Below, piece after piece: positions 13,186 to 48,775 of a DNA stretch of 64,000 nucleotides (positions are counted from its first letter, which is position 1; each line of letters begins with the position of its first letter). This DNA is from Candidatus Woesebacteria bacterium GW2011_GWB1_39_12 (GTDB lineage: Bacteria; Patescibacteriota; Microgenomatia; UBA8517), in contig LBWB01000005.1 in NCBI GenBank assembly GCA_000993405.1, forward strand, positions 3,698 through 67,697. The letters are read 5' to 3'. The notes under the pieces were generated by a model. It was given only the letters and a program-made list of their open reading frames with translations, was not told the DNA's origin and made no database searches. The translations under genes were made by a program, and so were the position numbers.

Positions 13186-13195
13186 GAATATAACG

Positions 13196-35923: not shown

Positions 35924-36047
35924 ATAATGTTAAATATTGGTTCGGATAAAATCAACTTGGCTCGAGAAATGGTCACAATTTCGGACAACTGACTGGGTAA
36001 ATTACCTTGAATACCCAGAATACGCAACTAAGGAAGTTAATCGATTC

Positions 36048-36947
36048 CTAAACCTTAGTTAAGATATTTTGAGGCTTACCTGCTACAAAAGCTTCGATAT
36101 TCTGCACCGCTATTTCGGCACCATTTACAAGCGCTTGTTTAGACGACCAGGCAATGTGAGGAGTTACTAGCACCTTTGGATTACTCAGGGCTTTCTGATA
36201 GAACTCGTTAGTTGTATCGCCAAACTTTTCTGGATCGCAGTCTATTGCAGCGCCTCCCACAATTCCGTTATCAATCGATTTGAGCAACCCATCCAGGTCA
36301 TAAGTGTATCGTCTGACAAAGGACACAAAGTAAGCACTCTTTTTAAGCGACATAAAGAACTTTTCATCAAGTAAGTTTTTACTTGTAGAGTTGCAATTGA
36401 GGGCGTTAATCACTAAGTCAGCATCGGCGGCTTTGGCAATTAAATCGTCACCTCGTTCAAAGAAGCTGACTTTCATACCCAAAGCCTCACAAGGAATAGC
36501 AATCTTAGAGCCTATGCTTCCTTTGCCGACAATAAGCACTTTCTTTTCATTCAAGCTCTCATGAACTTCGACAGAGATGGTTTTGTCAGCCCTTACTAAG
36601 GGAATAAACTTACGAAACAAGGCAAGGGTCATGAACATCACCCACTCGATAATTGATGGTCTATTGCCACCTTGTGAATTAGCAACTACTACGCCTTTCT
36701 TTTTTAGCTCTTTAGAGTTGAATACACCAAGTTCGACATAGGGATAAGTCACAAAAATATCTTTTAATTTGGGTAAGCTATCGAGCAGGAACGCACCGTC
36801 ACTATAAAGAACATCAGCCCCATAAGTTTGCTTAACTAAGTCATCAGAACTTGACGGACTGGAAAGATAATTAACCTCACCTAGCGCTTCAAGCCGTGCC
36901 TTTTGTTTGTCTGTTGGATTGGCTCCTAATACTACAATTTTTGTCAT
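36048..36947 (-). CDS. D-isomer-specific 2-hydroxyacid dehydrogenase (NAD-binding)
   Basis: 299 aa. VLIVGKGSIGSKIA (GxGxxG), GGAAIDC, TPHIAWSS are signatures of the D-2-hydroxyacid dehydrogenase family. Confidence 0.8.
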   Translation of the reverse strand: MTKIVVLGANPTDKQKARLEALGEVNYLSSPSSSDDLVKQTYGADVLYSDGAFLLDSLPKLKDIFVTYPYVELGVFNSKELKKKGVVVANSQGGNRPSIIEWVMFMTLALFRKFIPLVRADKTISVEVHESLNEKKVLIVGKGSIGSKIAIPCEALGMKVSFFERGDDLIAKAADADLVINALNCNSTSKNLLDEKFFMSLKKSAYFVSFVRRYTYDLDGLLKSIDNGIVGGAAIDCDPEKFGDTTNEFYQKALSNPKVLVTPHIAWSSKQALVNGAEIAVQNIEAFVAGKPQNILTKV

Positions 36948-36967: not shown

Positions 36968-37351
36968 TTATATTTTTTGTTGGTTCTTCGCAGCTAATTT
37001 GGAATCAGTGACATTCCCAGTGTTTAGCGTTACTTTTGGCTCGATTAAGACTATGTGAACTTCTTCTTTTGCTTCGGGTTTATGCTCGATTGGGTGCGGA
37101 ATTATGACAAACTCGCCCTCGTTTATTTCCACATCTCTGTCTCTGAAGTGAATTGTCAACCGACCTTTAATCACCAAAAACAGCTCGTCTTCACTTTCGT
37201 GGTGATGCCAGACAAATTCTCCTTTGAGTTTTACTACCTGAACCTTATGGTCATTCAACTCACCAACGATTTTGGGATTCCAGTATTCCTTGAAAAGAGA
37301 CAGTTTATCGGCGATATTGACTACTTTTACGGTATCACTGATGTTTTTCAT
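36968..37351 (-). CDS. Cupin-domain protein
   Basis: 127 aa. WHHHESEDELFLVIKGRLTIHF...GEFVIIPHPIEHKPEA fits a cupin fold. Confidence 0.6.
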   Translation of the reverse strand: MKNISDTVKVVNIADKLSLFKEYWNPKIVGELNDHKVQVVKLKGEFVWHHHESEDELFLVIKGRLTIHFRDRDVEINEGEFVIIPHPIEHKPEAKEEVHIVLIEPKVTLNTGNVTDSKLAAKNQQKI

Positions 37352-37391: not shown

Positions 37392-37760
37392 TCAAAGTTT
37401 GTATCTCGGATCCAACAAAGTGCAAATTGCCAGAAATACGAGCAAATATAAAATGCCGCCAATAACTAACTTTTCTAAAAAAGATACCTGCCTTCTTCTT
37501 ATTATCTTGGGTATAGCGATTAATAGAAAAGCCTCGATGACAAACGAAAGACCGCCAAGACCATAATAAAAAATTATCTGGAGTGGTTTAGATAGAAACG
37601 AAATGTCTTCTTTTACATCACCGAAAAGATCAAGTGGTGTAGAGATCTTCAAAATGTCTTGGGTTATATCCTTCAGAAAGTGGACAAGAATGAAAATATA
37701 CAGGAACGGAAGAAGTAGTCTCCAGATGTTAAAGACTGATTTGATCTGTTTAATTTTCAT
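37392..37760 (-). CDS. Hypothetical membrane protein
   Basis: 122 aa, 3-4 TM helices. Confidence 0.45.
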   Translation of the reverse strand: MKIKQIKSVFNIWRLLLPFLYIFILVHFLKDITQDILKISTPLDLFGDVKEDISFLSKPLQIIFYYGLGGLSFVIEAFLLIAIPKIIRRRQVSFLEKLVIGGILYLLVFLAICTLLDPRYKL

Positions 37761-37779
37761 AATTTCAATCCCAAAGCTC

Positions 37780-38064
37780 CTATGGCAATATGGTTGCTAA
37801 AAACCAAAGTGGTAAGGAAAACACAACCAAAGCACCCAATAAGCCAAGTCTATCTCTTTTCAAAACCACCAACGACCCCACAATACCCAGAAGGTCTAAA
37901 GGATAGGTTACATAATTACAGTATGGCTTGCACCACAGATGAGGTCTATGGAGAATGTTGGTAAATGAACTGTGTAACCCAAAAACTTGTAGAGTATCCC
38001 TGATTAGGTGATAAACCGAAGCAAGAAAAATAACAATAAATACCAATTTCAAGAATTTGCTCAT
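37780..38064 (-). CDS. Hypothetical membrane protein
   Basis: 94 aa, 2-3 TM helices. Overlaps the upstream gene by 4 nt. Confidence 0.45.
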   Translation of the reverse strand: MSKFLKLVFIVIFLASVYHLIRDTLQVFGLHSSFTNILHRPHLWCKPYCNYVTYPLDLLGIVGSLVVLKRDRLGLLGALVVFSLPLWFLATILP

Positions 38065-38534
38065 AGGATAAACCAGCGAGAAACTTGCTGTGTATACCTG
38101 ACATAGTCCTCCCCATACCTCGCTTTTAATATGGGTTCTTCAACTCTAATCAGGTAAATATGAAGTCCTACCGCCCCGATAAGAAATAACCCCAACAACA
38201 TTATGTGCCCAAGAGAAAGAAACAAGCCCAAGTATATAAGCGCATGAGCTACATAAATCGGATTCCTTGTGAATTTATACACGCCTTTAATCACCAACTT
38301 TTTAGGAGGTTCTGTCAGCATAGGAGTCCCTCTACCGTGGAGCTTAAATGTTAAACTCGCAATTAAAGCAAGTAATACGCCACCTACGGTAAGCACGTAG
38401 CCCAGCGATTTCAGAACTCCAAAGTCAATTTGGGGTAAGTTAAGCGCAGTATTTATATAAGCAAAACTCAGTGGAAGAAGCACCCATAACAGTAGAATAG
38501 CGAACAAACCAAATAAAAAGGATTTGAACTTCAT
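38061..38534 (-). CDS. Isoprenylcysteine carboxyl methyltransferase (ICMT)/phospholipid methyltransferase family membrane protein
   Basis: 157 aa. VYKFTRNPIYVAHALIYLGLFLSLGH matches the family's RNPxY...G motif. Confidence 0.65.
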   Translation of the reverse strand: MKFKSFLFGLFAILLLWVLLPLSFAYINTALNLPQIDFGVLKSLGYVLTVGGVLLALIASLTFKLHGRGTPMLTEPPKKLVIKGVYKFTRNPIYVAHALIYLGLFLSLGHIMLLGLFLIGAVGLHIYLIRVEEPILKARYGEDYVRYTQQVSRWFIL

Positions 38535-38588
38535 CTTAGCAACAAGTATACCTCTTCCTACTGAAAAATTGTATAATTAAGTTGAGTT

Positions 38589-38777
38589 ATGCCGAAGAAA
38601 AACACGACTTTACCAAAATTGTTAACTATCCGCCAAGCAGCGGAGATTTTGAATGTCCATGTGGAGACACTGAGACGATGGGATAAAAGCGGAAAGTTGA
38701 AGGCTACCCGAATCAACGAGCGTGGTGATAGGCGCTATGACCCAAGAGATATCGAAAAAATCTTAAATAACAAATAA
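38589..38777 (+). CDS. Excisionase/MerR-type helix-turn-helix DNA-binding protein
   Basis: 62 aa. LLTIRQAAEILNVHVETLRRWDKSGKLKATRINERGDRRYDPRDIEKI is typical of the excisionase-family HTH. Directly precedes the 1134-aa ORF with a 4-nt gap. Confidence 0.7.
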   Translation: MPKKNTTLPKLLTIRQAAEILNVHVETLRRWDKSGKLKATRINERGDRRYDPRDIEKILNNK

Positions 38778-38781
38778 ATCT

Positions 38782-41700
38782 ATGAGCGACCTTCTTGGAG
38801 GAAAATTAGATAATTCAGAGATTAAAAAGGAGATCGGCAAATCCTCCTTCTCTACTGGGTATAAACCATCCAGTCAACTAATCAATGATACTCTTGAACA
38901 ACTTTGGTTTCATGATTTTTACAATAGTTTTATATCCGACGAGGTTTATCTTAGCTACCTACTTAGTTACCTGAATCAAATTAAGCCTCGCAAATTTGAC
39001 CGATATGAGTTCTATAAATATTTCTTTGATCAAATTGAGAAAAAACTAAGTGCAAGGAAAATCCTACAGCAAATTGCACTCACATTTGAAAAGCTACAAA
39101 GCGATGCTATCCCCCCAGAGGAATACAATTCCCTCTTACAACAGGTAAATGCTCCGACAGACACATTTAGTGCCTCCTGGATGGACACATGCCATTTAGG
39201 AAAAGTTAAAAAAAGAGACGAGAAGAAATTATTTATTTGGGAGCATCATACCCTTACTGAGTTTTTAGTCGCCGAATATTTACTTGAAGGCGAGGATGTC
39301 TTAGGAGAATTTCAAAAACTGGCAATTCTAAAGCAAGAAGGCATAACTGCTTTTAAGCCGTCATGGTCTGGTGTTTTGCGCTTCCTTATTGAATCTAAAA
39401 AAGGCTTAGAAGTCAGCGCCTGGCTGATCAGTTTCTTAGAAAAACATCCAGATGACCTTGATGATAATCTAGCAGAACTTCTCGTTTACGAGCTGGCAAA
39501 CCAAACTTCAAAGATCAAGAAAAGAGTTTTTAATCTTGTTTACAACTCTTATTTTGAAAAAGTTACCTGGATACCTGTTAGGGCAAGAGTTCGCTTATCT
39601 AAATTTGTCGATAAACAATCATATAAAAGGCTAAAAACCGATATTAAAGTTTGGGCAAACAAGACTGAAACTTTTGTGCGGAGGGGTAATGTTGTCTCAA
39701 TAATAGAAGGTATATTAAAGGACAAAAATAAAATCGTCGATGCTACAGAGAAAAAATTCTGGCTCACAAAACTAGTAGAGTTTGCTAATAATCCCAACGA
39801 TGACGGCAATGGTGTTCTCCAAAGACACAGCTTGGGAGCATTAGCACAATTTGAAGACGAGAGCATAATCTCTAAGGTCTCGCAGAAATGTTTCGAGGAA
39901 ACACGAGACTCGTTGGTAAGAAATGAATTTATACAGTTTTGTATTGACACGAATCCTAACTCTAAAGAAGCTATCGATTACTTTGTAAAAGACATCTCTA
40001 GTATTTACTCCCGCCACGGGCTTTACAGGATTACAACCCAAGAAGCAATTGAGTATTTACTATCCAAAATCGCCGAAGACACCAGTTTTCTTAGGGAGTT
40101 TTTAGATAAGGAAAGTGTTTTCGACAAAGACGGTAGTGACAGGCGGCTTCTTAAAAATATTAAAAAGCGCATCAATACTAAGGTGATCCAATTATTAAAA
40201 AAGATTATTTTTACGGTTCTTCGTATCACTGATTATTATCATGAAGGGCAATCTAGTCTTCTGCGTCAAATAATTCAGCTAATCAACGAGCATGATCCAC
40301 GCTATCTCTTTGAGATCTTGACAGATATAAAAAGTGAAAAGGATGAACAAAAAATAGACAGGCTTTTCTGGGATTCAAGAGATTTATTGGCATTGTTGCT
40401 AACCAAAGACAATGTCAAAGAATATTTCGATTTTTTGAAAGATTTTCCAGATAGAACAAAGAGGGATACTCAATTTGTCGTATATAGCGCAAAACGATTG
40501 AACGGAGAAATCGGAGAAGCGACTTATCAAGAAGCAGTGAAACTAAAATTGGTTGAAAAAGTTGATGAAAGAAGCTCGAAAAAATACTTCGAAAAACAAG
40601 AGAGGCAAAGAAAACAGAAGGTCTACACGAATTTTCTTCATCAGCTTGAGCCAGAACCAGGCAAATTTCAGACTGGCGTCTTTGAATATTTTATTCAAAA
40701 CAAGGAAGAGATTCAGAAACAATGGAAAAAGAAAGATAAGCAAAAACTGCTGAAACTGGCAGTTAAAGTTTGCCTTCAAAAAATTAATCCTCGTCAATTT
40801 CGAGTAACTTTAGCAAATAAGGGCGAAGGGAATAACCAGTTTACATGGAGCACACCCGCTTCCTATTACGGAGACCTGCTCAATGCGGTTAAAGAATTAG
40901 CACCAGAAGAAATCAAAAAGCATAGACAGAATATTATTGACTTTATTCCCTACGAGTTTGATACCTCAGCTACTTTAGATTTTATAGAACAAGTAAACGA
41001 TACTGACCTTGCCTGGGTAAATCAGGTCATGAGTGATCAAAACGACCACCGTCGTTATCTTATACCACAAACTTATATTTATCTGGTAGGAGAGTATGCA
41101 AAACGCCGTTGTAAATTGGATACCGTAAAACCAATTCTGAAATCATTTATAACCGATCCCGATATTCGGGACTATACCCGCCGTTCAGCTTTAGAAAATT
41201 TAGCTCATTTCATAGACAGCTCAGATAAAGTGACTAAGAAGTTCCTCAAGGATATTTTTACAAAATCAAGTGACCAAGAGCTCGTCGAGATTGCTAATGG
41301 CTTGTTAATAACTGTATATGAAGACGAGAAAGCCATTAATTGGCGTTTTGAAAAGCTAAAAAAACCGCTGGAATTTAACAGAGAGGATGTCGAAGGTCAA
41401 GCTCATTCGGTTGGGGCAGTAGAAGAAGAACTCATGAGAATGTCGTCAGCAAAACCATTAATGGACTTGCGTGACGAAAAGTATTTACCCAAATTTTTGG
41501 ATTTACTTGACTACTCATTTAAGTTTACTGAAAAAAAAGATAACAAAAAGTATTGGGAATATGTCAACTATCTCTGGCGAACAGTTACAGAATTCGTAGA
41601 CAAATTAAAAGAAAAGGGGTCATTTATACCCCTTATGGAACTAGAAAACTGGGTTGAGGAACACTCTCAATATGAGAACATTAACTGGTTTGAGGCACGA

Positions 41701-42186
41701 ATAAAGGAAATCAAGAGAAATTATCTCAACCTTGTTCATCCTTTCGATAAACTTGTGGACGGCGTGGAGGAACTCAACAAGATTGGTGTGCCTGCCGCAT
41801 CAATAGCTTATTTTCTATTCAAAGCACAATTAGTAGAGTCAAGATTGCGAGATCTTATTTTGGGAATAAATTACTTCCTTGAAAAGGCAAATAACAAATT
41901 GCCAATCTACAGGAAACTGAATCACGAAAATAAAAAAAGACTTAAAAATTCAACATTAAGCCAATTGTGTGACGAGCTGAACTGTTACCAAAGCCAACTG
42001 GTTGAGAAGTTAAAGAATAAGCTAAGTCAATTTTCTACCGAAAGGAATAAATTTAATCACGAACTATATAATCAGAACAAAGATATTCGTGACCTAAGTG
42101 AAGAAGCTAAAAAATACACAAAATTTGCTGAAGAAAGCCTAGATTTAATACACTCAGTTTGGGAAGAAATTTTGACTATCAGGTAA
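38782..42186 (+). CDS. Large (1134 aa) alpha-helical protein of unknown function with a possible C-terminal HEPN-like motif
   Basis: No P-loop found. Long helical-repeat (HEAT-like) middle region. The C-terminal ~130 aa contain ...SQFSTERNKFNHELYNQ..., i.e. R-N-x3-H, the HEPN RNase signature pattern. In an operon with the upstream HTH gene and inside the putative integrated element. Confidence 0.5.
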   Translation: MSDLLGGKLDNSEIKKEIGKSSFSTGYKPSSQLINDTLEQLWFHDFYNSFISDEVYLSYLLSYLNQIKPRKFDRYEFYKYFFDQIEKKLSARKILQQIALTFEKLQSDAIPPEEYNSLLQQVNAPTDTFSASWMDTCHLGKVKKRDEKKLFIWEHHTLTEFLVAEYLLEGEDVLGEFQKLAILKQEGITAFKPSWSGVLRFLIESKKGLEVSAWLISFLEKHPDDLDDNLAELLVYELANQTSKIKKRVFNLVYNSYFEKVTWIPVRARVRLSKFVDKQSYKRLKTDIKVWANKTETFVRRGNVVSIIEGILKDKNKIVDATEKKFWLTKLVEFANNPNDDGNGVLQRHSLGALAQFEDESIISKVSQKCFEETRDSLVRNEFIQFCIDTNPNSKEAIDYFVKDISSIYSRHGLYRITTQEAIEYLLSKIAEDTSFLREFLDKESVFDKDGSDRRLLKNIKKRINTKVIQLLKKIIFTVLRITDYYHEGQSSLLRQIIQLINEHDPRYLFEILTDIKSEKDEQKIDRLFWDSRDLLALLLTKDNVKEYFDFLKDFPDRTKRDTQFVVYSAKRLNGEIGEATYQEAVKLKLVEKVDERSSKKYFEKQERQRKQKVYTNFLHQLEPEPGKFQTGVFEYFIQNKEEIQKQWKKKDKQKLLKLAVKVCLQKINPRQFRVTLANKGEGNNQFTWSTPASYYGDLLNAVKELAPEEIKKHRQNIIDFIPYEFDTSATLDFIEQVNDTDLAWVNQVMSDQNDHRRYLIPQTYIYLVGEYAKRRCKLDTVKPILKSFITDPDIRDYTRRSALENLAHFIDSSDKVTKKFLKDIFTKSSDQELVEIANGLLITVYEDEKAINWRFEKLKKPLEFNREDVEGQAHSVGAVEEELMRMSSAKPLMDLRDEKYLPKFLDLLDYSFKFTEKKDNKKYWEYVNYLWRTVTEFVDKLKEKGSFIPLMELENWVEEHSQYENINWFEARIKEIKRNYLNLVHPFDKLVDGVEELNKIGVPAASIAYFLFKAQLVESRLRDLILGINYFLEKANNKLPIYRKLNHENKKRLKNSTLSQLCDELNCYQSQLVEKLKNKLSQFSTERNKFNHELYNQNKDIRDLSEEAKKYTKFAEESLDLIHSVWEEILTIR

Positions 42187-42483
42187 GAAATAAACAATGT
42201 TGACTTATTGACCAGCGCGTTAGCCCCCGTGTTGACTTTGTAGGCGCTTTCGTGCTTGAAGTGGCATCTGATTACCTTATGTTAGCTTCAGAAGCCTCGT
42301 TGGGGATTTGTTGCAGGAGTCTGCAGTAGTTCTGGGAGGACTCCTTAACCTCCATACTTGATTGGGCTAGCCTGGAGAGTTTCCTGGTAAAACCAGTATA
42401 TTTCTAGCGTCAGAACCAATAAGTAATTTAACTCAATAACAATAAAAATTCAACTTCACTTGATATTTCTCTCTTTTCTATTG

Positions 42484-43257
42484 TTACTTCGGCGCTTGTC
42501 CGTTCAGCTCGTTTGAATAGACGATCACTTGCCCTCCGTTAGTGATGGTTAAGCTCAGGCTTCCGCCTGTGCTGTTTCGCCATCCGAAGAAGTAGTTGAT
42601 CTTGCTGCCTCCGCCGTCCTTTATGTTCGTCATTTCAGGATCGAGTTTTAGGCTTGTCAGGTCTACTCCGAGGATATTTTTATGATCTTCGATAAACTTC
42701 TCGGCTACCTTCTGGGCTTGCGCCTGAGTGTAGCGGGGAGTGTAGTCGTATTCCGCTTGCGGATCAAACCAACGACTGCCATCTGAGTTCGTTCCCCATC
42801 TGCTACCTTCCCATGCTTCTGCCCTCACTGAGACGATGTAATTCGTCTTTGGGTCTATCGTGAAGCCTCCAAGCTTGGCATTATAATGCTCGTTCTTGGG
42901 ATTGTTATAATCGGTGCCTTCAAAGGTGCTGCAGATAAAATCCACAGCAACTGACTTATCACCAAGAAACTCTTTGATATTGGCGACTGCCTTTGCCCTC
43001 TGGTCTTCTGGTCGGGCTGTCAGTTGGCAGTATTCTTTGTAGGCATCTTTATGCGCCTGGCTCTCAGCATTCTTATTTGTGTTCATCGCCTCTACTAACT
43101 GGGCGATTCTCGTCGCTTTGGCATCAGTTGACAATGTCGGGGCAACTTTTGATTGATTTATTAAACGAGGGATTAGGATGATAACCAGAAGCGCAACTAC
43201 TGCTAAAAGTAAAATAGCGGGAAGAAAACGAGATTTATTTTTATTTGTCATATTCAT
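42484..43257 (-). CDS. Membrane-anchored extracytoplasmic protein, hypothetical
   Basis: 257 aa. N-terminal TM LPAILLLAVVALLVIILIP. Strong SD GAGGAGGTGA. Confidence 0.55.
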   Translation of the reverse strand: MNMTNKNKSRFLPAILLLAVVALLVIILIPRLINQSKVAPTLSTDAKATRIAQLVEAMNTNKNAESQAHKDAYKEYCQLTARPEDQRAKAVANIKEFLGDKSVAVDFICSTFEGTDYNNPKNEHYNAKLGGFTIDPKTNYIVSVRAEAWEGSRWGTNSDGSRWFDPQAEYDYTPRYTQAQAQKVAEKFIEDHKNILGVDLTSLKLDPEMTNIKDGGGSKINYFFGWRNSTGGSLSLTITNGGQVIVYSNELNGQAPK

Positions 43258-43550
43258 TTTTCACCTCCTCTCGGGTATAAATTGATAATTTAGCCTTGAG
43301 TGTTGCATGTTAACTTCGCTTAAGGGAGATTGTCAAATCAAACAAAAAGCTCCCCCCAGCGATGGCTTGCGCCACCTGCCACCCTTTCGGATGACAGCCT
43401 CGACAGCGCTCTAGGGAGAGCTTGTTGCTGTCGAGGACTTCTTCATGCCATGCCCCTTGCGGAGTTTAGGCAATGTGCTTATATTGTAACAATTTTAGGC
43501 TAATTTTTATATAATGATCATATCCATTGATACTGTCCTATAAATGGAAA

Positions 43551-44252
43551 ATGACAATGAAAATGAATATTGCAAAACAACAAGCTATAGCAAAAATCTG
43601 GTTAGTGCTACAAGAAATCCAAGAAAAAGTGGAGCTTACAAACGATGTGGATGCAGCGATCAATTTACCAGTAATCCCAACAAAACAATATTACAGGGAG
43701 TTTAGGAAAATATTCGGGGAGGAAGTCGATGACGAATATATTTGCCAGGAGAGGGTCGGAATCTTAAACGGTCTAGAGAAAAGAGACTTAATCATGTGGG
43801 AGGACGAATTCCCAGGAATGATACGCTTCACAACTACCCATTTATATGACGATTATTACAAGGAAATCGAGAAGCAATACACACAGATCGATTCAACTGT
43901 AAGTGAGCAACAAAATATTCTTCAATGGCAGGAACTTAAATTGGATCTCTCAAAAGGAACTCTGCAATATAAAAATAGCCCACCCATAGATGTATCTCCA
44001 AGCGAAGAAGAGATTATGTTTTTAGCGGTCCTGATGAGAGCCAAGAGAATAGTTGAGTATGTCGAGATTGCAAGAGAACTAAAAATGAACTGTTATCACC
44101 AAGGAGTGACCAACGAAGATCTCGCAAGAAATGTGCAGTATCTAAGGCGGGATATTGTGCCAGTTTTAGAAAAAATAGGCATGCCCCGAAGTGAAATAAA
44201 GAGAATGATTGTCTCAATCAGAAACAAGGGTTACAAACTCCGCACAAAATAG
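43551..44252 (+). CDS. Putative transcriptional regulator with a C-terminal OmpR/PhoB-type winged-helix DNA-binding domain
   Basis: ORF 43527..44252 begins at TTG. ATG at 43551. C-terminal SPSEEEIMFLAVLMRAKRIVEYVEIARELKM...NVQYLRRDIVPVLEKIGMPRSEIKRMIVSIRNKGYKLRT matches the Trans_reg_C pattern (...VSxRNKGYKL). Confidence 0.5.
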   Translation: MTMKMNIAKQQAIAKIWLVLQEIQEKVELTNDVDAAINLPVIPTKQYYREFRKIFGEEVDDEYICQERVGILNGLEKRDLIMWEDEFPGMIRFTTTHLYDDYYKEIEKQYTQIDSTVSEQQNILQWQELKLDLSKGTLQYKNSPPIDVSPSEEEIMFLAVLMRAKRIVEYVEIARELKMNCYHQGVTNEDLARNVQYLRRDIVPVLEKIGMPRSEIKRMIVSIRNKGYKLRTK

Positions 44253-44356
44253 TCGTCTCCCAACCCGCAAAACTCCTCGTAAGATCGTAAATTCTTCCTA
44301 GACAAGCCCGTGGCAACTTGCTACTGATTCCCCAAGAATATGGGTAGCTATCAATT

Positions 44357-44623
44357 TTGATAACTATCACTATGACGCAGCAAGAACTAAACAACGATTA
44401 CTATTCAACCAACGACCTTTCTTTGGCTACCACCCTCTCCCTTTGGTGTCCTATTGAAGATATTGACCGTTCTAATCCCCGCAAGGCATTTTTTATCTTC
44501 CGAAAAACTTCTGAACTGGAAAAGCTAATTGACCAGTATTTCCGAAACGAAATCAAGATTTCACCGCAAGTTTATTTCAACCAGTTGCGGGTTATTAAAG
44601 CTCGGCTCTATGCCAACGAATAA
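44357..44623 (+). CDS. Small protein resembling the DUF5659 family
   Basis: 88 aa. YSTNDLSLATTLSLWCPIEDIDRSNPRKAFFIFRKTSELEKLIDQYFRNEIKISPQVYFNQLRVIKARLY matches the S-T-x-D-L-x-L-A pattern and length of DUF5659-type proteins. Confidence 0.4.
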   Translation: MITITMTQQELNNDYYSTNDLSLATTLSLWCPIEDIDRSNPRKAFFIFRKTSELEKLIDQYFRNEIKISPQVYFNQLRVIKARLYANE

Positions 44624-44779
44624 CTATGATAAGCAGAAACCTATTATTAGAACTAAAACAAATTTTAGAAGAAGATTTCAACTTAAAGTTAAGTTTGGAG
44701 CAAGTGATGGAAATAGGCACGATTTTATTGGCATATGTCGAAACTTTATTAAAAATCGAATCAGCTAGTAAAGGAGGGG

Positions 44780-45025
44780 TTGAACATGCTTGATAAAGAT
44801 ATAGAAAAACTAAATTCACAAACAGTCAACAAAGACGACCATATCATAGTTGCAGTTCGAAGACTATATATTCAAGAGTTTGTAGAGGCTAACTATGGGA
44901 GGGAGCTAACTGAGGCAGAGTTGGAAGAATTAACCTGGTTAGTTTGGGAAAACGATTGGGAGTTAATGCAGTGGCTCGACAAGGCAATAAGGCAAATTAT
45001 CGAGGAGGCAAAACAGAAAAAGTAA
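44780..45025 (+). CDS. Hypothetical small acidic protein
   Basis: 81 aa. RBS-like AAGGAGGGG upstream. Confidence 0.5.
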   Translation: MNMLDKDIEKLNSQTVNKDDHIIVAVRRLYIQEFVEANYGRELTEAELEELTWLVWENDWELMQWLDKAIRQIIEEAKQKK

Positions 45026-45040
45026 AAAATAAGAATAACT

Positions 45041-45394
45041 ATGACAATCACTATTAACGACATAACAGCCAAAATCAAATTATTAAAATCAGAAACCATT
45101 CTTGCTCAGGCAACGCTTGTCCTCTTCGATGTTTGGAAAGAGCATGGCTGGAAAGTTTTGAGGTCAGATAGACTGCACCCAAAGTTCCAAGAGCCGATCT
45201 GGTTTCAAGCTCCTAGTTATAAATTTTTAGGCAAGTGGAACGAGATTGTTTTTATAGACAACAGCAAGTTGTTTGATGAAGTCATCGAAAAAATATATGA
45301 CGCTTATTGCCTCGCTAGGAGTAAAAACCCTAACCAGGGCAAGGAGGACGAAATCGTAACTGAGGAGGTAAATATAGATGACATTAACTTATAA
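45041..45394 (+). CDS. Hypothetical protein
   Basis: 117 aa. Confidence 0.45.
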   Translation: MTITINDITAKIKLLKSETILAQATLVLFDVWKEHGWKVLRSDRLHPKFQEPIWFQAPSYKFLGKWNEIVFIDNSKLFDEVIEKIYDAYCLARSKNPNQGKEDEIVTEEVNIDDINL

Positions 45395-45498
45395 AACCAA
45401 TAGTAACTATATAGGGACTTATAAAGGGATTTTTACAGTAACAGTTTTTCCCTTTAAGAGGAAATGTATTTATATAAGTTACTATAACTAATTTAACT

Positions 45499-46071
45499 AT
45501 GAATATCGTTACATCAAAAATACCAGGAGAACGAGCAAAACAATACGCCGCTTGGCTTCTGTATTGTGAAGTTGGAAGCCTCGAAAAAACGCTCAAAGTG
45601 TGGGAAAGAATTCAAGGACAGAATGATACCGAAATGATACCAATTTTGGGAGTTTACATGGGTAAACCTGTTGGTCTGGCAACCCTCAAGCGTTGGTCTA
45701 GCCGCTACAACTGGAAAGAGCGGACTGAGCTGAAAAACACCGAAGATCTGGAAGATATGAGATTTCAATTTAAGAAAATAAAACAAACGAGAGCGTATAA
45801 AATTGCCATTTTATTAGACAGGGTTCTTGACAGATTGAGTCGGCAGCTGGATCAAGGAATGTATGTCAGCACAAGAGATCTTTATACCCTTTGGAAGATG
45901 CACCGAGTCGAAGAAGGATTGAGTATCGGAAACTACCAGGTTATTACTTATCAGCAACCACCCGCAGAACCAAAAAGTCCTGAAGAAATAGAACTAGATA
46001 AGCAAATAGAAGAAGCGGTTGATCAATTCCATAAAAATAAACATAAGGATGATCAGCCTACCATTACTTGA
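45499..46071 (+). CDS. Hypothetical protein (possible HTH-containing element protein)
   Basis: 190 aa. Immediately upstream of the recombinase. Confidence 0.45.
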   Translation: MNIVTSKIPGERAKQYAAWLLYCEVGSLEKTLKVWERIQGQNDTEMIPILGVYMGKPVGLATLKRWSSRYNWKERTELKNTEDLEDMRFQFKKIKQTRAYKIAILLDRVLDRLSRQLDQGMYVSTRDLYTLWKMHRVEEGLSIGNYQVITYQQPPAEPKSPEEIELDKQIEEAVDQFHKNKHKDDQPTIT

Positions 46072-46117
46072 TATTGCCAAACAATTTGTTTATGTTCTGT
46101 GTTGAACAAAAATTATT

Positions 46118-47704
46118 ATGAAAACTGCCATATTCTGCCGAGTAAGCAGTAAAGAACAGGAAGAAACAGGCTACTCCCTGCCAGCGCAGGAGAAATTCTT
46201 ACGAGAGTATGCCGACAAACAAGGCTTAGAAGTCGCCAAGGTCTTCGCCGTTTCAGAGTCTGCAGCAGGCAAGGTCCAAAGGAAGATCTTTATTGAGATG
46301 ATTGCTTATGTCCGCAAGCACGACATCCCCACAATTATTGTAGAAACAACTGACCGTCTAACCAGGAACTTTGCCGATGTTCCCACTATCGACTTATGGA
46401 TTACTGAGAACGAGGATCATCAAGTCCACCTGGCAAAAGAAGGCTGCATTCTCCACAACACCTCCCGCTCCCACGAGTGGTTTATGTGGCGGGTAAAGGT
46501 GGCAACCGCTGAATACTATGTCCGACTCCTCTCGGAAAATGTAAAGAAGGGGCAAAAGGAAAAGATCGCCCAGGGATGGTTACCAACCAAACCGCCTAAT
46601 GGCTATAAAACCATCGGAGATACAGGACACAAAATCCATGTTGTTGACGAAGATACCGCGCCCTTTGTGAGGAAAATGTTTGATCTGTATATTACAGGCA
46701 ATTATTCAATCAAACGGCTCTCCAAAAAGATGTATGCCGAAGGGATGCGATCCCAATTGGGGCATAAACTCCCGCATAGTCGCATTCACACCTTGTTGCG
46801 CGATCCTTTTTATATCGGCAAAATGAGATGGCAAGATAACATTTATGAGGGTAAACAGCAGCCGTTAATCACCGTCGAGCAATTTAATAAAGTCCAGACC
46901 ATGCTTAAAAGCAGAACTACCCCTAAATACCGCAAGCATAACTTCCTCTTCCGAGGTCTGATCAAATGCGCTGGCTGCCACAACTCAATTACTTTTGAAA
47001 CGGCTAAGGGTCATATTTACGGTCACTGCAACCATTATCACGAATGCCCACAAACAACCTGGGTTAAGGAATACGAAGTCGAAGACCAGCTTTTAGAAGG
47101 GTTTGAAACCTTAAAAATCAAAAACAGCCGTATAGTCGGATGGCTGAAGAAGGCACTCAAGGAAAGTCACCAGGACGAGATCGAATACCACAACAACACC
47201 GTAGGCGAACTTGAAACCCGCTACGAGGCGGTTCAGAAGCGGATGGACAAGTTATACGACGACAAGCTAGACGAAAAGATTGCTCCAGAGTTCTACAACA
47301 GGAAATTCAAACAGTATTCAGACGAGAAAGATGAAATAACGGAATCGATAAAGAAACACGCCCAGGCAAGCACAGGCTACATTAACTTAGGGGTGAATAT
47401 CTATGAACTCTCCCAAAGAGCCAAAGAACTATACCTGAAAGCCAAGGCTAAAGGCATGATAGACGAGCAAAGAGCCTTAATCCGATTTATCTTTGCCACC
47501 TTAACGGTTGATGGGGAAAAATTAAGCTACACCTATTCCAAGACCTTCAAAATCCTCTCCGAGGCAGTCGCAGAAACAAATGGTCCGAAAGTGGGAAAAA
47601 TTGACGACTTAGAAAATGGAAAATTCGAACTTACAAAAAAGCCCGACAATTCAACACAAAAGGACGCTTTGTTGCCTCTGCGTCCCATCTGGCTCCTCGG
47701 GTAG
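46118..47704 (+). CDS. Large serine recombinase (resolvase-family catalytic domain, recombinase domain, zinc ribbon)
   Basis: 528 aa. MKTAIFCRVSSKEQ (catalytic Ser). Recombinase-domain core. CAGCHNSITFE...HCNHYHEC zinc ribbon. C-terminal coiled coil. The last 15 nt overlap the 3' end of tRNA-Asn on the opposite strand. Confidence 0.85.
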   Translation: MKTAIFCRVSSKEQEETGYSLPAQEKFLREYADKQGLEVAKVFAVSESAAGKVQRKIFIEMIAYVRKHDIPTIIVETTDRLTRNFADVPTIDLWITENEDHQVHLAKEGCILHNTSRSHEWFMWRVKVATAEYYVRLLSENVKKGQKEKIAQGWLPTKPPNGYKTIGDTGHKIHVVDEDTAPFVRKMFDLYITGNYSIKRLSKKMYAEGMRSQLGHKLPHSRIHTLLRDPFYIGKMRWQDNIYEGKQQPLITVEQFNKVQTMLKSRTTPKYRKHNFLFRGLIKCAGCHNSITFETAKGHIYGHCNHYHECPQTTWVKEYEVEDQLLEGFETLKIKNSRIVGWLKKALKESHQDEIEYHNNTVGELETRYEAVQKRMDKLYDDKLDEKIAPEFYNRKFKQYSDEKDEITESIKKHAQASTGYINLGVNIYELSQRAKELYLKAKAKGMIDEQRALIRFIFATLTVDGEKLSYTYSKTFKILSEAVAETNGPKVGKIDDLENGKFELTKKPDNSTQKDALLPLRPIWLLG

Positions 47705-47764
47705 GATTCGAACCTACGACCTTTCCCTTAACAGGGGACCGCGCTACCACTGCGCCACCGAGGA
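47690..47764 (-). tRNA. tRNA-Asn (anticodon GTT)
   Basis: Reverse complement TCCTCGGTGGCGCAGTGGTAGCGCGGTCCCCTGTTAAGGGAAAGGTCGTAGGTTCGAATCCTACCCGAGGAGCCA. Canonical cloverleaf, anticodon loop CTGTTAA, CCA encoded. Confidence 0.85.
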
Positions 47765-47798
47765 ATGATTTTAAAGCAGTGACATTATAGCAAAGAAT

Positions 47799-48113
47799 TT
47801 AGCCTCTGGGTAGCTTGATTAAACCTGCGTGAATTTCTCTATGGCAGTTTGCACAAACTAATAAACATTTGTGTATTTCCTTAACTATCATCTTCCAACT
47901 TTTTGTCATATCCCTGACATTTAAGGCAAATAGCTTTTTCTTTTCATTAATATGATGAAAATCGAGTGCGCCGGAATATTTTTTGTAACCACAAACTTGA
48001 CATTCTCCACCACCTTCCTGAACGGCTAATTCCTTGAGATGCCTTCTTCTTTTAGCTACTGCATCTGCTAAATACCTTGCTCGATCTCTATACTTTCGGG
48101 TATCTTTTGCCAC
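47799..48113 (-). CDS. HNH endonuclease
   Basis: 104 aa. CQVCGY...LDFHHINEKK...LVCANCHREIH, an HNH motif with two Cys pairs. Confidence 0.75.
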   Translation of the reverse strand: MAKDTRKYRDRARYLADAVAKRRRHLKELAVQEGGGECQVCGYKKYSGALDFHHINEKKKLFALNVRDMTKSWKMIVKEIHKCLLVCANCHREIHAGLIKLPRG

Positions 48114-48154
48114 AATTCAGTATTAACCAAATTAAACCCGAAGTCAAGTAGAAT

Positions 48155-48775
48155 TTACCCACTGAAGTCTTGACGCGGCAACATACTCTGGGTATTTAAC
48201 TTGTTTCCAAATTGGTATTTTTTATTTAAAGATATGGCTAATTCTGTTATTGTGAAACCGAGAGGTATGAAGATAAGGGTACTTGCTAATTGATTTTTCA
48301 AGAAAGGTAGTGCGTAAAAATAAGACATTAAAAGCCCTGCCAAATTTTTAGCGTACATATTTCCAAGAAGCCAGACGCCGAAATTAGTCCAGAGGTAGAA
48401 AAAAATATTTGCGGAAAATCCGATAGAGGTTAGCGAAAAAATATTAGATATTTTTTCGGTGATTGGTGATCTGTGATTGGTGATTAGTTTTTTTAAGATA
48501 GAACTTGCTAAAAAAGCAGGGATTAGAAAACCGCTCCAAGTGAAAAGAAAGATGTTTGAATTTCCGATAACCAGGTCTGAGAGGGAAATAATTGCAAAAG
48601 TTAACCAGAAAGATTCTTTCTTGCCAAAATAGAACGACGATAAGATCATGGTCGCGGTTATTAATTCAACATTTGGTCCCAGGTCGAAAGCGATTCTTTC
48701 GGAGATAGCGATAAGAAATAAAAGAGTAAGTACTAAGTATTTTGTATTAAGTATTTTGTATATAGGATTTTTCAT
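48155..48775 (-). CDS. Polytopic membrane protein, possible ECF-transporter S-component-like
   Basis: 206 aa with 5-6 TM helices. Translationally coupled to the upstream DUF4430-like gene by a 4-nt overlap. Contains a tgattgg-type heptamer repeat at 48460-48487. Confidence 0.4.
   Translation of the reverse strand: MKNPIYKILNTKYLVLTLLFLIAISERIAFDLGPNVELITATMILSSFYFGKKESFWLTFAIISLSDLVIGNSNIFLFTWSGFLIPAFLASSILKKLITNHRSPITEKISNIFSLTSIGFSANIFFYLWTNFGVWLLGNMYAKNLAGLLMSYFYALPFLKNQLASTLIFIPLGFTITELAISLNKKYQFGNKLNTQSMLPRQDFSG

What the first reader, a model, noticed from the sequence alone, without database searches (positions are those of the whole stretch)
38589..47764. Putative ~9 kb integrated element ending in a large serine recombinase whose 3' end overlaps tRNA-Asn
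A 528-aa large serine recombinase (catalytic Ser, recombinase domain, zinc ribbon, coiled coil) ends 15 nt inside the 3' end of the minus-strand tRNA-Asn(GTT). That is the classic signature of site-specific integration into a tRNA gene with reconstitution of its 3' end. Upstream, all co-located genes look like mobile-element cargo: an excisionase-type HTH, a 1134-aa orphan protein, a protein with an OmpR-type wHTH, a DUF5659-like small protein and several small acidic ORFs. An HNH endonuclease lies just beyond the tRNA. Serine recombinases leave no long direct repeats, so the left boundary is not visible by eye. Candidates are about 38540 and the GC-rich convergent intergenic region at 42187-42483.
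Basis: partly seen in the sequence, partly recalled or inferred. Interest (0 to 1): 0.7.

Follow-up and report, generated by a model that had tools for sequence, protein, structure and literature searches.

The report
Serine-integrase island in tRNA-Asn end
This is a real 11.7 kb mobile DNA island, longer than first thought, inserted by a serine integrase at the last six bases of a tRNA-Asn gene in a Woesebacteria (CPR) genome; inserting it cuts a conserved tail off the integrase's own gene.

Summary
A 528-aa large serine recombinase (46118-47704, +) ends 15 nt inside tRNA-Asn(GTT) (47690-47764, -).

The interpretation (an integrated element) is supported, but the boundaries are wrong. Two independent metagenome contigs of the same species have an empty site. 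They join window 47690 directly to window 35963 through a 6-bp core, TGGCTC, which is the tRNA 3' end GAGCCA. The insert is therefore 35964-47689 (11,726 bp). It also includes five genes I had first read as host genes from their Pfam domains: 2-hydroxyacid dehydrogenase, cupin, orf122, orf94 and a PEMT-like methyltransferase.

The deduced attP join occurs once in public metagenomes, at the left end of a related 13.4 kb element. The crossover lies inside the integrase ORF. The excised form would encode 558 aa with a conserved C-terminal tail, whose 32 codons are still intact at the far left end.

Relatives of the integrase occur in 442 species genomes, almost all Patescibacteria. In 46 of 62 informative loci a tRNA 3' end starts at or within 2 nt of the same Trp codon.

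The backbone is small and has no capsid or conjugation genes. The cargo looks defence-like: a 1134-aa HEAT solenoid related to TIR- and NACHT-fused proteins, with PARIS, restriction-modification or PycTM genes at the same slot in relatives. How the element transfers between cells is unknown.

The parts
35958..35963 (.). attL core TGGCTC, a copy of the tRNA 3' end (GAGCCA on the minus strand)
   Evidence: The alignments of empty-site contigs L019 and L020 to the two window flanks overlap by exactly these 6 nt.
35964..36062 (+). P' arm of attP, plus the detached last 32 codons and stop of the integrase (EKWSQFRTTDWVNYLEYPEYATKEVNRFLNLS*). It is in frame with the core and would be rejoined to int on excision.
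   Evidence: It is the only open frame of the six. Against L036 there are 9 synonymous and 1 non-synonymous codon differences. The same tail is attached to full-length integrases in L062 and L064.
36048..36947 (-). Left-end cargo: D-2-hydroxyacid dehydrogenase family protein (299 aa)
   Evidence: Pfam 2-Hacid_dh_C at 9.4e-20; NCBIfam. Absent from the empty-site contigs.
36968..37351 (-). Left-end cargo: cupin (127 aa)
   Evidence: Pfam Cupin_2 at 5.6e-11. Lies inside the indel.
37392..38064 (-). Left-end cargo: two small ORFs of unknown function (122 aa at 37392-37760; 94 aa at 37780-38064)
   Evidence: No family matches. They lie inside the indel.
38061..38534 (-). Left-end cargo: PEMT/ICMT-like membrane methyltransferase (157 aa)
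   Evidence: Pfam PEMT at 2.1e-12. Lies inside the indel.
38589..38777 (+). MerR/HTH_17 small DNA-binding protein (62 aa) that heads the variable cargo operon. Conserved backbone gene.
   Evidence: Pfam MerR_1 at 1.1e-12 and HTH_17 at 6.7e-12. It is 80-90% identical in L032, L033 and L040, where it precedes different cargo. It is duplicated in L010 ahead of a PARIS AriAB gene.
38782..42186 (+). Cargo: 1134-aa alpha-solenoid (HEAT-like) protein, a candidate immune sensor or effector
   Evidence: It has 99 homologues. Relatives carry a C-terminal TIR domain in place of residues 984-1134, or an N-terminal P-loop/NACHT domain that is absent here. AF2 gives pLDDT 89 and an all-helical fold. Foldseek finds only generic HEAT solenoids. 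There is no PADLOC or Pfam hit.
42484..43257 (-). Backbone: 257-aa protein with an N-terminal membrane anchor, function unknown
   Evidence: It is 44-84% identical in L037, L032, L033 and L040. The only library hit is a weak ComGC-like N-terminus.
43527..44252 (+). Backbone, but diverged: 241-aa protein, possibly a regulator or replication protein. It begins a module that is swapped in variant B.
   Evidence: It is 28-31% identical to the 267- and 298-aa proteins at the same position in L037, L022 and L040. No library hit. Window 43580-46064 is replaced in L009 and L022.
44357..44793 (+). Backbone: DUF5659 protein (44357-44623) and orf55 (44626-44793), the genes most constantly linked to this integrase
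   Evidence: Pfam DUF5659 at 2.8e-11. The two are found within 3 kb upstream of int in 51 and 40 of 80 genome loci respectively.
44780..45394 (+). Small ORFs: orf81 (44780-45025) and orf117 (45041-45394)
   Evidence: orf117 is conserved in 13 of 80 loci and in L032, L033 and L037. No family hit.
45499..46071 (+). 190-aa protein resembling phage small terminase subunits (an accessory gene, not universal in the family)
   Evidence: All 15 aligned family members hit phrog_6299 'terminase small subunit' (best 3.9e-12). It sits directly upstream of int in 12 of 80 loci. No Pfam, NCBIfam or PDB hit.
46118..47704 (+). Large serine integrase in its integrated-state form (528 aa). Codons 525-526 (TGG CTC) are the crossover core. 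The last two codons and the stop are tRNA antisense.
47690..47695 (.). attR core TGGCTC
47690..47764 (-). tRNA-Asn(GTT), the target gene. It is intact in both the filled and the empty alleles.
   Evidence: ARAGORN. The sequence is identical in L019 and L020.

Best explanation
Window 35964-47689 is an 11.7 kb integrative element in a Candidatus Woesebacteria genome. Its own large serine integrase inserted it at the extreme 3' end of tRNA-Asn(GTT).

Shown:
- Strand exchange happened within a 6-bp identity, TGGCTC. These 6 bp are the antisense of the tRNA's last six bases (GAGCCA). They are also codons 525-526 (Trp-Leu) of the integrase.
- attP therefore lies inside the int reading frame.
- Closely related genomes of the same species lack the element, and their tRNA is intact.
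- The two element ends are found joined, as attP, in a related element.

Inferred:
- The free, circular element encodes a 558-aa integrase with a conserved helical C-terminal tail of about 35 aa.
- Integration moves the last 32 codons to the opposite end of the element. The result is a 528-aa protein that ends in two residues specified by tRNA antisense.
- Excision would need a directionality factor. My guess is one of the small backbone proteins, DUF5659 or orf55. Excision would restore the full gene and the intact tRNA.

The element belongs to a family found across Patescibacteria. The family has a small conserved backbone (MerR-like HTH, orf257, a diverged wHTH protein, DUF5659, orf55, orf117, Int) and swappable cargo slots. 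Here the cargo is five metabolic or envelope-type genes plus a 1134-aa HEAT-solenoid protein, which I read as an anti-phage or immune gene. The element has no capsid, lysis or conjugation genes. It must therefore depend on something else for cell-to-cell transfer: a helper phage (it carries a small-terminase-like gene) or DNA uptake. That step is not shown.
For: Empty site. L019 and L020 come from different samples and different assemblers. They are 99.5-99.9% identical to both flanks and join 47690.. to ..35963 with a 6-nt overlap. L021 is a scaffold that links an empty-junction contig to an attL contig across an N gap, so both alleles are present in one sample.

Second context for the same left junction. 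L008/L027 is 99.99% identical across the whole insert and the right flank, but its left flank diverges immediately after the core.

attP. The 25-mer that spans the deduced join occurs once in the metagenome collection (L036). There an integrase 3' remnant (92.5% identical) is fused through TGGCTC to sequence 91% identical to window 35958-36046. That junction is the left end of a 13.4 kb sister element, whose own integrase (93% identical) abuts a tRNA 3' end through the same core.

Tail.
- It is the only open frame in this segment.
- There are 9 synonymous and 1 non-synonymous codon differences against L036.
- The same W..FRT..W....YPE....V..FL tail is attached to full-length integrases that are 50-87% identical.
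- AF2 of P0186 models the tail as short helices after a disordered linker.

Family. 442 species genomes hold relatives, almost all Patescibacteria. In 46 of 62 loci a tRNA 3' end starts at or within 2 nt of the Trp codon, and 35 of those are tRNA-Asn. The DUF5659/orf55 backbone lies upstream in 51 of 80 and 40 of 80 loci. The backbone is conserved in L032, L033, L037 and L040 with different cargo.

attB. The outer 9 nt of the non-tRNA arm (GGTTCGGAT) form an inverted repeat with the tRNA T-arm (ATTCGAACC). The symmetry axis falls inside the core.

Cargo.
- Relatives of the 1134-aa protein carry TIR or NACHT domains.
- In relatives, the slot after the MerR gene holds a fused PARIS AriAB (3.5e-62), a HinfI-type restriction-modification system, an 860-aa nuclease-like protein with a methyltransferase, or PycTM.
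Against: - No circular or attP form of this exact element was found. The one attP join is in a relative about 92% identical, and it sits inside a chromosome-like contig (a tandem-array remnant), not on a free circle.
- The left flank in L008 shows no attB-like symmetry and could be an assembly chimera.
- The five left-end genes have ordinary metabolic or envelope domains, and base composition shows no step. A two-part origin (an older island plus the 9 kb backbone) is therefore not excluded.
- The 1134-aa protein has no PADLOC or Pfam match and no recognisable catalytic domain.
- The small-terminase label rests on a single PHROG annotation.
- No directionality factor, replication protein or transfer function was identified.
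- All data are metagenomic assemblies.
Confidence: 0.8

Rival explanations
1. Composite locus. The mobile unit is only the roughly 9 kb backbone (about 38540-47689). Window 35964-38540 would then be the remnant of an older element or island at the same tRNA, or captured host DNA, and the two are lost or gained together only by accident.
For: The left-end genes have host-type domains. In L010, 230 nt comprising most of the MerR gene, its upstream intergenic region and the first 9 nt of the PEMT gene (window 38526-38755) are duplicated at 91% identity, which suggests a module edge near 38526. Sister elements carry entirely different genes between the P' arm and the MerR gene.
Against: The empty site removes the whole 11.7 kb cleanly at the core. 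The conserved P' arm and integrase tail lie at 35964-36062, not near 38540, and the same arm bounds the sister element in L036/L037. No copy of the core or of a tRNA fragment lies near 38540. Variable cargo next to a conserved arm is the usual island architecture.
Confidence: 0.1
2. Phage satellite (PICI-like). The element is induced by a helper phage of Woesebacteria, excises, and uses its small-terminase-like protein to have its 11.7 kb genome packaged into helper capsids.
For: The element is 10-14 kb and has an integrase at one end but no structural genes. The 190-aa protein and all 14 aligned homologues hit phrog_6299 'terminase small subunit'. More distant integrase relatives sit in phage-like lysogeny and replication modules (L041: ImmA/HTH_3, Phage_rep_O, HTH_36) or next to very large, uncharacterised proteins (L042). 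Defence cargo is typical of satellites (established knowledge of P4 and PICI hotspots).
Against: The terminase-like gene is in only 12 of 80 family loci and is absent from variant B of this same element. It has no match to Pfam, NCBIfam or PDB terminases. No primase or replicase, capsid-remodelling gene, or cos/pac site was identified. No helper phage is known. IMG/VR and INPHARED hold nothing close.
Confidence: 0.2
3. Decayed prophage remnant. A once-complete temperate phage has lost its structural genes, leaving the integrase and the early region. It no longer moves.
For: No structural genes are present. A clearly decayed relative exists: L010 has an integrase that lacks its catalytic domain.
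Against: The same compact backbone recurs at similar size in distant Patescibacteria and is conserved at the protein level. The integrase and its detached tail are both intact. Presence/absence polymorphism occurs among flanks that are 99.5-99.9% identical. The module swap in variant B indicates an evolving, transferable lineage.
Confidence: 0.08
4. The segment is ancestral, and the 'empty' contigs reflect an ordinary deletion or an assembly artefact rather than a site-specific event.
For: A 6-bp microhomology could also mediate an illegitimate deletion. All evidence comes from assemblies.
Against: The junction falls exactly at the tRNA 3' end and at the conserved Trp-Leu codons used by the whole integrase family. 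Two independent assemblies give the identical junction. The reciprocal attP join exists in a related element.
Confidence: 0.03

Closest known systems
Integrative elements of large serine integrases (phages A118, TP901-1, Bxb1, phiC31; SCCmec Ccr; XisF elements)
   Same: The domain architecture is the same: resolvase catalytic domain with the Ser nucleophile, recombinase domain, zinc ribbon with a coiled-coil insert. The identity between the att sites is very short (6 bp) and there are no long direct repeats. The integrase gene lies at the element boundary next to attP.
   Different: The target is the 3' end of a tRNA gene. [quoted passage not shown] I found no report of this for a serine integrase. 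The host is a CPR bacterium. No directionality factor was recognised.
SSV-type archaeal tyrosine integrases, whose int gene is partitioned on integration into a tRNA gene
   Same: attP lies within the integrase ORF and the target is a tRNA gene. The integrated element therefore carries the two parts of int at its opposite ends, and excision restores the gene. The SSV facts come from my own knowledge and from the title and abstract of PMC8371274 listed, which I did not read.
   Different: The recombinase superfamily is unrelated (tyrosine against serine), and the domain of life differs. Here only the last 32 codons are detached, so the catalytic and DNA-binding domains stay intact.
Integration-dependent control in mycobacteriophages (attP inside the repressor gene; C-terminal tags removed or added by integration)
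   Same: The concept is shared: integration alters the C-terminus of a phage-encoded regulator or recombination protein and so couples protein form to integration state. This is from my own knowledge and was not tested here.
   Different: Those systems use tyrosine integrases, and the split gene is the repressor. No degradation tag or regulatory effect has been shown for the tail described here.
Defence-carrying satellites and islands (P4-like hotspots carrying PARIS; PICIs)
   Same: This is a small integrase-bounded element with a conserved backbone and a hotspot where unrelated defence genes replace one another. A fused PARIS AriAB occupies the slot in L010, and restriction-modification genes and PycTM occupy it in L032, L037 and L040.
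   Different: There are no P4 or PICI hallmark genes (primase-helicase, Psu/Sid or Ppi/Cpm-type capsid remodelling genes, AlpA/Stl regulators). The integrase is serine type, the host phylum is different, and no helper is known.
Bacterial NACHT/STAND antiviral ATPases (for the 1134-aa cargo protein)
   Same: Residues 56-983 align with the post-NTPase helical and repeat region of NACHT proteins (P0097, 27% identity, E 1e-77). Closer relatives carry TIR effector domains.
   Different: The P-loop NTPase domain that defines STAND proteins is absent. The alignment starts at residue 207 of P0097, after its Walker A motif at about residue 52. The C-terminal 150 residues form a helical bundle of unknown function in the position where relatives have TIR.

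Membership tests
Large serine recombinase (serine integrase) | N-terminal resolvase catalytic domain with the conserved Arg and Ser nucleophile | tested here: met
   Pfam Resolvase at 1.7e-19 over residues 4-153. R8 and S10 are invariant in 42 homologues. Matches the TP901-1 integrase catalytic domain.
Large serine recombinase (serine integrase) | C-terminal recombinase domain plus a zinc ribbon with an inserted coiled coil | tested here: met
   Pfam Recombinase at 6e-16. Zn_ribbon_recom scores 25.6 bits, just above the cut-off of 25.3. Residues 171-457 align to the A118 integrase C-terminal domain. AF2 of the 58%-identical P0186 shows long antiparallel helices at 337-441.
Large serine recombinase (serine integrase) | attP x attB recombination at a short central identity with imperfect dyad symmetry, leaving no long direct repeats | tested here: met
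   The core is 6 bp and is the only shared sequence. The attB dyad axis lies inside the core, with 8 of the 9 outer positions symmetric. Catalysis itself is not testable here.
Integrative genetic element / genomic island | Presence/absence polymorphism with a precise empty site in close relatives | tested here: met
   L019 and L020 are empty. More than 10 assemblies are occupied. Flanks are 99.5-99.9% identical.
Integrative genetic element / genomic island | Circular or attP form in which the two ends are joined | tested here: inconclusive
   The attP 25-mer was found once, in a related element about 92% identical, as an internal junction of a chromosomal contig. There are no hits in IMG/VR. 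No free circle of this element was seen.
Prophage | Capsid, portal, large terminase, tail and lysis genes | tested here: not met
   None of the ORFs inside 35964-47689 that were scanned (Pfam: all 14 scanned; PHROGs: the nine from 38589 rightwards, not the five left-end genes) hits a structural or lysis family. The only packaging-related hit is the small-terminase-like phrog_6299.
Phage satellite (PICI / P4-like) | Packaging-hijack gene (small terminase or capsid-remodelling gene) | tested here: inconclusive
   phrog_6299 'terminase small subunit' at 2.8e-11 for the window protein, and hit by all 15 family members. There is no support from Pfam, NCBIfam or PDB, and the gene is in only 12 of 80 loci.
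Phage satellite (PICI / P4-like) | Own replication module (primase/helicase or Rep) and induction by a helper phage | tested here: not met
   No replication family was detected in this element. Variant B and L040 carry an HTH_36 protein. Helper dependence is not testable with these tools.
Integrative conjugative or mobilisable element | Relaxase, coupling protein or type IV secretion genes | tested here: not met
   No such Pfam or NCBIfam hits inside 35964-47689. oriT is not testable.
STAND / NACHT antiviral ATPase (1134-aa cargo) | P-loop NTPase (NACHT) domain | tested here: not met
   No Pfam ATPase hit. The alignment to the NACHT relative P0097 begins after its P-loop region.
Known anti-phage defence systems (PADLOC models) | Match of the cargo proteins to a defence-system HMM | tested here: not met
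   The 1134-aa protein has 0 PADLOC families. Only the 62-aa HTH hits mad1, a generic HTH match. Defence function is inferred from TIR/NACHT relatives and from slot sharing with PARIS, restriction-modification and PycTM genes.

The most novel reading that the evidence does not exclude
A clade of large serine integrases found across the CPR has placed its attP crossover inside its own coding sequence, at the Trp-Leu codons that double as the antisense of the tRNA CCA end. Integration then acts as a built-in switch. The episomal 558-aa enzyme carries a conserved helical C-terminal mini-domain. The integrated 528-aa enzyme lacks it. This difference could control directionality, stability or partner binding: for example, only the full-length form integrates, or the tail-less form is the one competent for RDF-dependent excision. 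That would be a mode of serine-integrase regulation not described before, combined with a tRNA target specificity that is rare and unverified for this enzyme family.
Probability: 0.3. Interest if true: 0.8.

Novelty: new variant of a known kind. Interest (0 to 1): 0.6.

Why it matters
Mobile elements of CPR/Patescibacteria are poorly characterised. In my searches I found no description of this element family, and no paper in the library mentions its hallmark domain DUF5659.

This locus gives a precisely delimited example, with attB, attL, attR and attP sequences, of a family present in hundreds of species genomes.

Three points matter beyond cataloguing:
1. It is strong comparative evidence that large serine integrases can specialise on tRNA 3' ends. 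A systematic survey regarded this as unreported and in need of proof (PMC7192596).
2. Because attP lies inside int, the enzyme has two natural isoforms tied to integration state. That is directly testable in vitro. It could bear on how directionality is controlled, and on engineering, since serine integrases are genome-editing tools.
3. The element's cargo slots point to candidate defence genes in organisms where little is known about immunity. One is a large NACHT-derived HEAT protein family whose C-terminal modules are interchangeable (TIR in some members).

Tried and rejected
- Repeat search for a displaced tRNA fragment or direct repeats near 38540 or elsewhere in 37500-48300: only chance-level matches.
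- GC content and skew profile: no discontinuity at either boundary.
- Promoter and terminator scan of the element: counts no higher than in shuffled sequence.
- attP 30-mer in IMG/VR: no hit.
- Integrase profile in IMG/VR: only 6 distant hits, at most 43% identical.
- 190-aa protein against INPHARED phages by tblastn: no match.
- PDB sequence searches for the 190-aa and 241-aa proteins, and profile searches for the 190-aa and 1134-aa families: nothing meaningful.
- Foldseek of the 1134-aa model: only generic HEAT solenoids with TM about 0.2, so no functional assignment.
- The 'OmpR-type wHTH' call for the 241-aa protein could not be confirmed in any library.
- The idea that the minus-strand small ORFs to the left (27-38 kb) were phage structural genes was rejected. 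They are ordinary cellular genes: DEAD helicase, ATP-grasp, tRNA-binding protein and others.
- L021 at first looked like a scar with a duplicated flank. It is a scaffold with a 10-N gap.
- Symmetry analysis of attP gave no clear dyad (best 10 of 24), so the crossover dinucleotide within TGGCTC cannot be named.
- Literature searches for a serine integrase with attP inside int, or for CPR integrative elements of this kind, found no precedent. One search failed on a syntax limit.

Full report
**1. The observation**

ORF 46118-47704 (+) encodes a 528-aa protein. It has Pfam Resolvase, Recombinase and Zn_ribbon_recom domains. It matches PHROG 95 'integrase' at 2.9e-78. In the PDB it matches the TP901-1 and A118 serine integrases. 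NCBIfam places it nearest XisF and CcrB.

ARAGORN finds tRNA-Asn(GTT) at 47690-47764 on the minus strand. The ORF ends TGG CTC CTC GGG TAG at 47690-47704, which is 15 nt inside the tRNA 3' end.

The window comes from contig LBWA01000006.1 of GCA_000993365.1. The source names the organism Candidatus Woesebacteria bacterium GW2011_GWB1_39_12 / GWA1_39_12, a CPR bacterium from aquifer metagenomes.

**2. Boundaries**

I looked up contigs that encode exactly the same flanking proteins. Many assemblies have the occupied locus.

The lookup with the DUF6580 protein to the right of the tRNA also returned contigs in which the HNH gene and tRNA-Asn are followed directly by the 106-aa and tRNA-binding genes. 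In the window those two genes lie at 35603-35923 and 35223-35585.

BLAST gives the detail:
- L019 aligns to window 55531-47690 and then to 35963-34880.
- L020 aligns to 49459-47690 and then to 35963-29900.
- Identity is 99.5-99.9%, and the two alignments overlap by 6 nt.

The junction sequences are as follows:
- attB: ..AAAATCAACT-TGGCTC-CTCGGGTAGG..
- attL: ..AAAATCAACT-TGGCTC-GAGAAATGGTCAC..
- attR: ..GCGTCCCATC-TGGCTC-CTCGGGTAGG..
- deduced attP: ..GCGTCCCATC-TGGCTC-GAGAAATGGTCAC..

The core is the antisense of the last six tRNA bases: two acceptor-stem bases, the discriminator and CCA.

L019 and L020 come from different samples and different assemblers. L021 is a scaffold in which an empty-junction contig is linked across 10 Ns to a contig that reads through attL. 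Both alleles therefore coexist in that sample.

A further contig, L008/L027, carries the whole insert and the right flank at 99.99% identity. It diverges from the window immediately after the left core into a GNAT acetyltransferase gene. This is a second context for the same left junction, although a chimera cannot be excluded.

In attB, the outer nine bases of the non-tRNA arm (GGTTCGGAT) mirror the tRNA T-arm (ATTCGAACC). The dyad axis falls inside the core. This is the kind of imperfect symmetry expected of a serine-integrase attB. That reading is my inference from established knowledge of A118-type sites.

**3. The ends joined**

The 25-mer spanning the deduced attP occurs once in the metagenome collection, in contig Ga0208958_1001867 (L036).

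In L036 a 334-nt 3' remnant of an integrase gene (92.5% identical to 47362-47695) is fused through TGGCTC to 89 nt that are 91% identical to window 35958-36046.

The same contig, 11 kb further on, carries a complete sister integrase (P0101, 93% identical). Its end abuts a tRNA-like 3' end through the same core. ARAGORN calls this tRNA only when introns are allowed.

So the junction in L036 is the left end of a 13.4 kb sister element. The neighbouring integrase remnant is what a partly deleted tandem copy would leave. This has two consequences:
- The right and left termini of these elements have been joined exactly as the deduced attP predicts.
- Window 35964-36046 is a conserved element terminus, while the genes next to it differ between elements. 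They are 2-hydroxyacid dehydrogenase to PEMT here, and other genes in the sister element.

I did not find a free circle of this exact element, and the attP 30-mer has no hit in IMG/VR.

**4. The integrase gene spans attP**

The core is codons 525-526 (Trp-Leu). In the integrated state the protein ends ..RPIWL-LG*, and the last two codons and the stop are tRNA antisense.

Read across the deduced attP, the ORF continues into 35964-36062 as EKWSQFRTTDWVNYLEYPEYATKEVNRFLNLS*. That gives a 558-aa protein.

Evidence that this tail is a real coding sequence:
- It is the only open frame of the six in that segment.
- Against the L036 copy it differs at 10 codons, 9 of them synonymously.
- The same tail is attached to full-length 557-aa integrases in genome loci L062 and L064, which are 73% and 87% identical.
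- A recognisably related tail (W-D-x-F-R-T-x-x-W ... Y-P-E ...) ends many homologues that are only 50-58% identical.

AF2 of one such homologue (P0186, mean pLDDT 81.5) shows three regions: the coiled coil at 337-441, a disordered linker at 489-497, and four short helices at 499-537 with pLDDT 68-77.

Among the 120 best database homologues, at least 46 instead read through into '..WLPREDSNLQP..'. The D-S-N there is GAT TCG AAC, the antisense of the tRNA T-arm. Another 25 stop two codons after WL, as the window protein does.

**5. Family and target**

A profile of the integrase finds relatives in 442 of the species-representative genomes. Nearly all are titled as Patescibacteria lineages: Woese-, Levy-, Roizman-, Gottesman-, Davies-, Pace- and Magasanikbacteria, Saccharibacteria and others.

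Of the 80 loci returned, 62 keep the WL motif. In 46 of those a minus-strand tRNA 3' end starts at the Trp codon or 2 nt from it. Of the 46, 35 are tRNA-Asn(GTT). The others are called Gln, Thr, Val, Asp or Tyr, mostly with predicted insertions of 170-355 nt, so those identities are uncertain.

[quoted passage not shown] It treated its 14 of 297 predicted cases as needing proof (PMC7192596).

**6. Gene content**

A backbone is conserved across sister elements (L032/33, L037, L040, L022): the MerR/HTH_17 62-aa protein, the membrane-anchored 257-aa protein, a diverged 241/267-aa protein, DUF5659, orf55, orf117 and Int. DUF5659 lies within 3 kb upstream of int in 51 of 80 genome loci, and orf55 in 40 of 80.

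Within this same species a variant B exists (L009 plus L022). It replaces 43580-46064 with a different module (267-aa protein, DUF5659, HTH_36/DUF3627 protein), while its integrase stays 96% identical.

No capsid, portal, large terminase, tail, lysis, relaxase or type IV secretion gene is detected.

The 190-aa protein just upstream of int, and all 14 aligned homologues, hit phrog_6299 'terminase small subunit' (best 3.9e-12). Nothing in Pfam, NCBIfam or the PDB supports that label. The gene is present in only 12 of 80 loci.

More distant integrase relatives with full-length tails sit in a phage-like lysogeny and replication module (L041) or beside very large proteins (L042). The family is therefore linked to phages or plasmids, but this element is a stripped-down member.

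**7. Cargo**

The 1134-aa protein is not an orphan. It has 99 homologues, mostly in CPR.
- Close relatives (53% identity over residues 8-983) replace its C-terminal 150 residues with a TIR domain.
- Distant relatives have an N-terminal P-loop/NACHT region. Our protein aligns only from their residue 207 onward, so it lacks the NTPase.
- AF2 (pLDDT 89, pTM 0.78) gives an all-helical solenoid with two beta-hairpins near residues 140-191 and a C-terminal bundle of long helices.
- Foldseek returns only generic HEAT solenoids.
- PADLOC has no model for it.

In sister elements, the slot headed by the MerR-like gene holds other genes:
- a fused PARIS AriAB (L010, 3.5e-62);
- an 860-aa nuclease-like protein with a methyltransferase, plus PycTM (L032);
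- PycTM (L040);
- a HinfI-type restriction-modification system and a 943-aa SMC/AAA_21 ATPase (L037).

A 67%-identical homologue of the 1134-aa protein lies next to type IV secretion genes in another contig (L035).

I therefore read the 1134-aa gene as defence cargo. This is inference, not demonstration. The five left-end genes have no obvious link to mobility or defence.

**8. Mechanism**

Shown:
- site-specific insertion at the tRNA-Asn 3' end with a 6-bp core;
- presence/absence polymorphism;
- conserved termini;
- the attP join in a relative;
- the integrase ORF spanning attP, with a conserved detached tail.

Inferred:
- The integrase catalysed the event.
- Excision regenerates the 558-aa gene.
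- A small backbone protein acts as directionality factor.
- The MerR-like protein regulates the cargo operon rather than acting as an excisionase. It directly precedes different cargo in four variants.
- The tail has a regulatory or structural role.

Unknown: how the element moves between cells. A helper phage (the satellite model) and DNA uptake are both open.

**9. Comparison with known systems and verdict**

This is a serine-integrase integrative element, so it is a known kind. Three features are unusual:
- tRNA 3'-end targeting by a whole clade of large serine integrases;
- attP inside int, which gives the integrase state-dependent isoforms. The nearest analogy is the unrelated SSV-type tyrosine integrases of archaea;
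- a previously undescribed, CPR-wide, compact backbone marked by DUF5659.

I rate it a new variant of a known kind, with interest 0.6. Its boundaries and several details are not.

Noticed in passing
L010:2822-6501 (JGI 3300009285, Ga0103680_10008542); corresponds to window 38526-38784 and 46801-47766: A strain variant is 100% identical to the window up to 38784. It then carries a second copy (91% identical over 230 nt) of most of the MerR gene plus its upstream region, followed by a fused PARIS AriAB gene (611 aa, PADLOC 3.5e-62). After that come an integrase remnant lacking the catalytic domain (54% identical, residues 173-528), tRNA-Asn and a different right flank (MFS, PCMT, UDG). This looks like a decayed, immobilised sister element.
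   Followed up: partly
L037:11573-11890, L038:4345-4662, and L046, L048, L050, L057, L072, L076, L083, L085, L103, L112: Many tRNA genes next to these integrases in CPR genomes carry insertions of 170-355 nt in the anticodon-loop region. ARAGORN calls them only when introns are allowed, and the anticodon assignments (Thr, Val, Gln, Asp, Tyr, Asn) are then uncertain. The nature of the insertions (group I introns or something else) was not examined.
   Followed up: no
window 47799-48113 (-), and L005:4318-5463: The HNH endonuclease gene just beyond the tRNA is present in both the filled and the empty alleles, so it is not part of the element. In strain variant L005, similarity to the window stops inside this gene (at 47969), and a 308-aa ORF with no Pfam hit replaces it.
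   Followed up: partly
window 28156-28824 (-), with 27755-28159 and 29129-29488: An AbiEii-type nucleotidyltransferase toxin (Pfam 6.2e-16) lies near a DUF5655 protein, 7 kb to the left of the element. It may be a toxin-antitoxin or abortive-infection module.
   Followed up: no
window 10810-15221: A tmRNA gene (tag ANKSDYDFDYAYLS) is followed by a cluster of four tRNA genes (Ser-CGA, Arg-GCG, Ser-GCT, Ser-GGA). No integrase was seen beside them in the ORF list.
   Followed up: no
L035:1129-11223 (GCA_964446685.1, CAYUPO010000010.1): A 67%-identical homologue of the 1134-aa protein sits beside a PLD-like gene and a type IV secretion cluster (VirB4/TraG-like, TraC-like, TrbC, M23 peptidase). The protein family therefore also travels on conjugative-type elements.
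   Followed up: no
L062:3001-7524 (JAGQLS010000002.1, 160 kb Woesebacteria contig): A full-length 557-aa integrase with the EKW.. tail is followed by a 925-aa ATPase-like gene on the opposite strand. This is an attP-state arrangement inside a large contig. It could be a tandem array, an episome joined to the chromosome by the assembler, or an integrase that is not at an element edge.
   Followed up: no
locus table (for example L047, L049, L054, L055, L058): Several MAG records that carry this Patescibacteria-type integrase and backbone are titled 'uncultured Gammaproteobacteria' or 'Pseudomonadales'. L049 is the same contig as L032, which has typical CPR-like gene content. The record titles look unreliable.
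   Followed up: no
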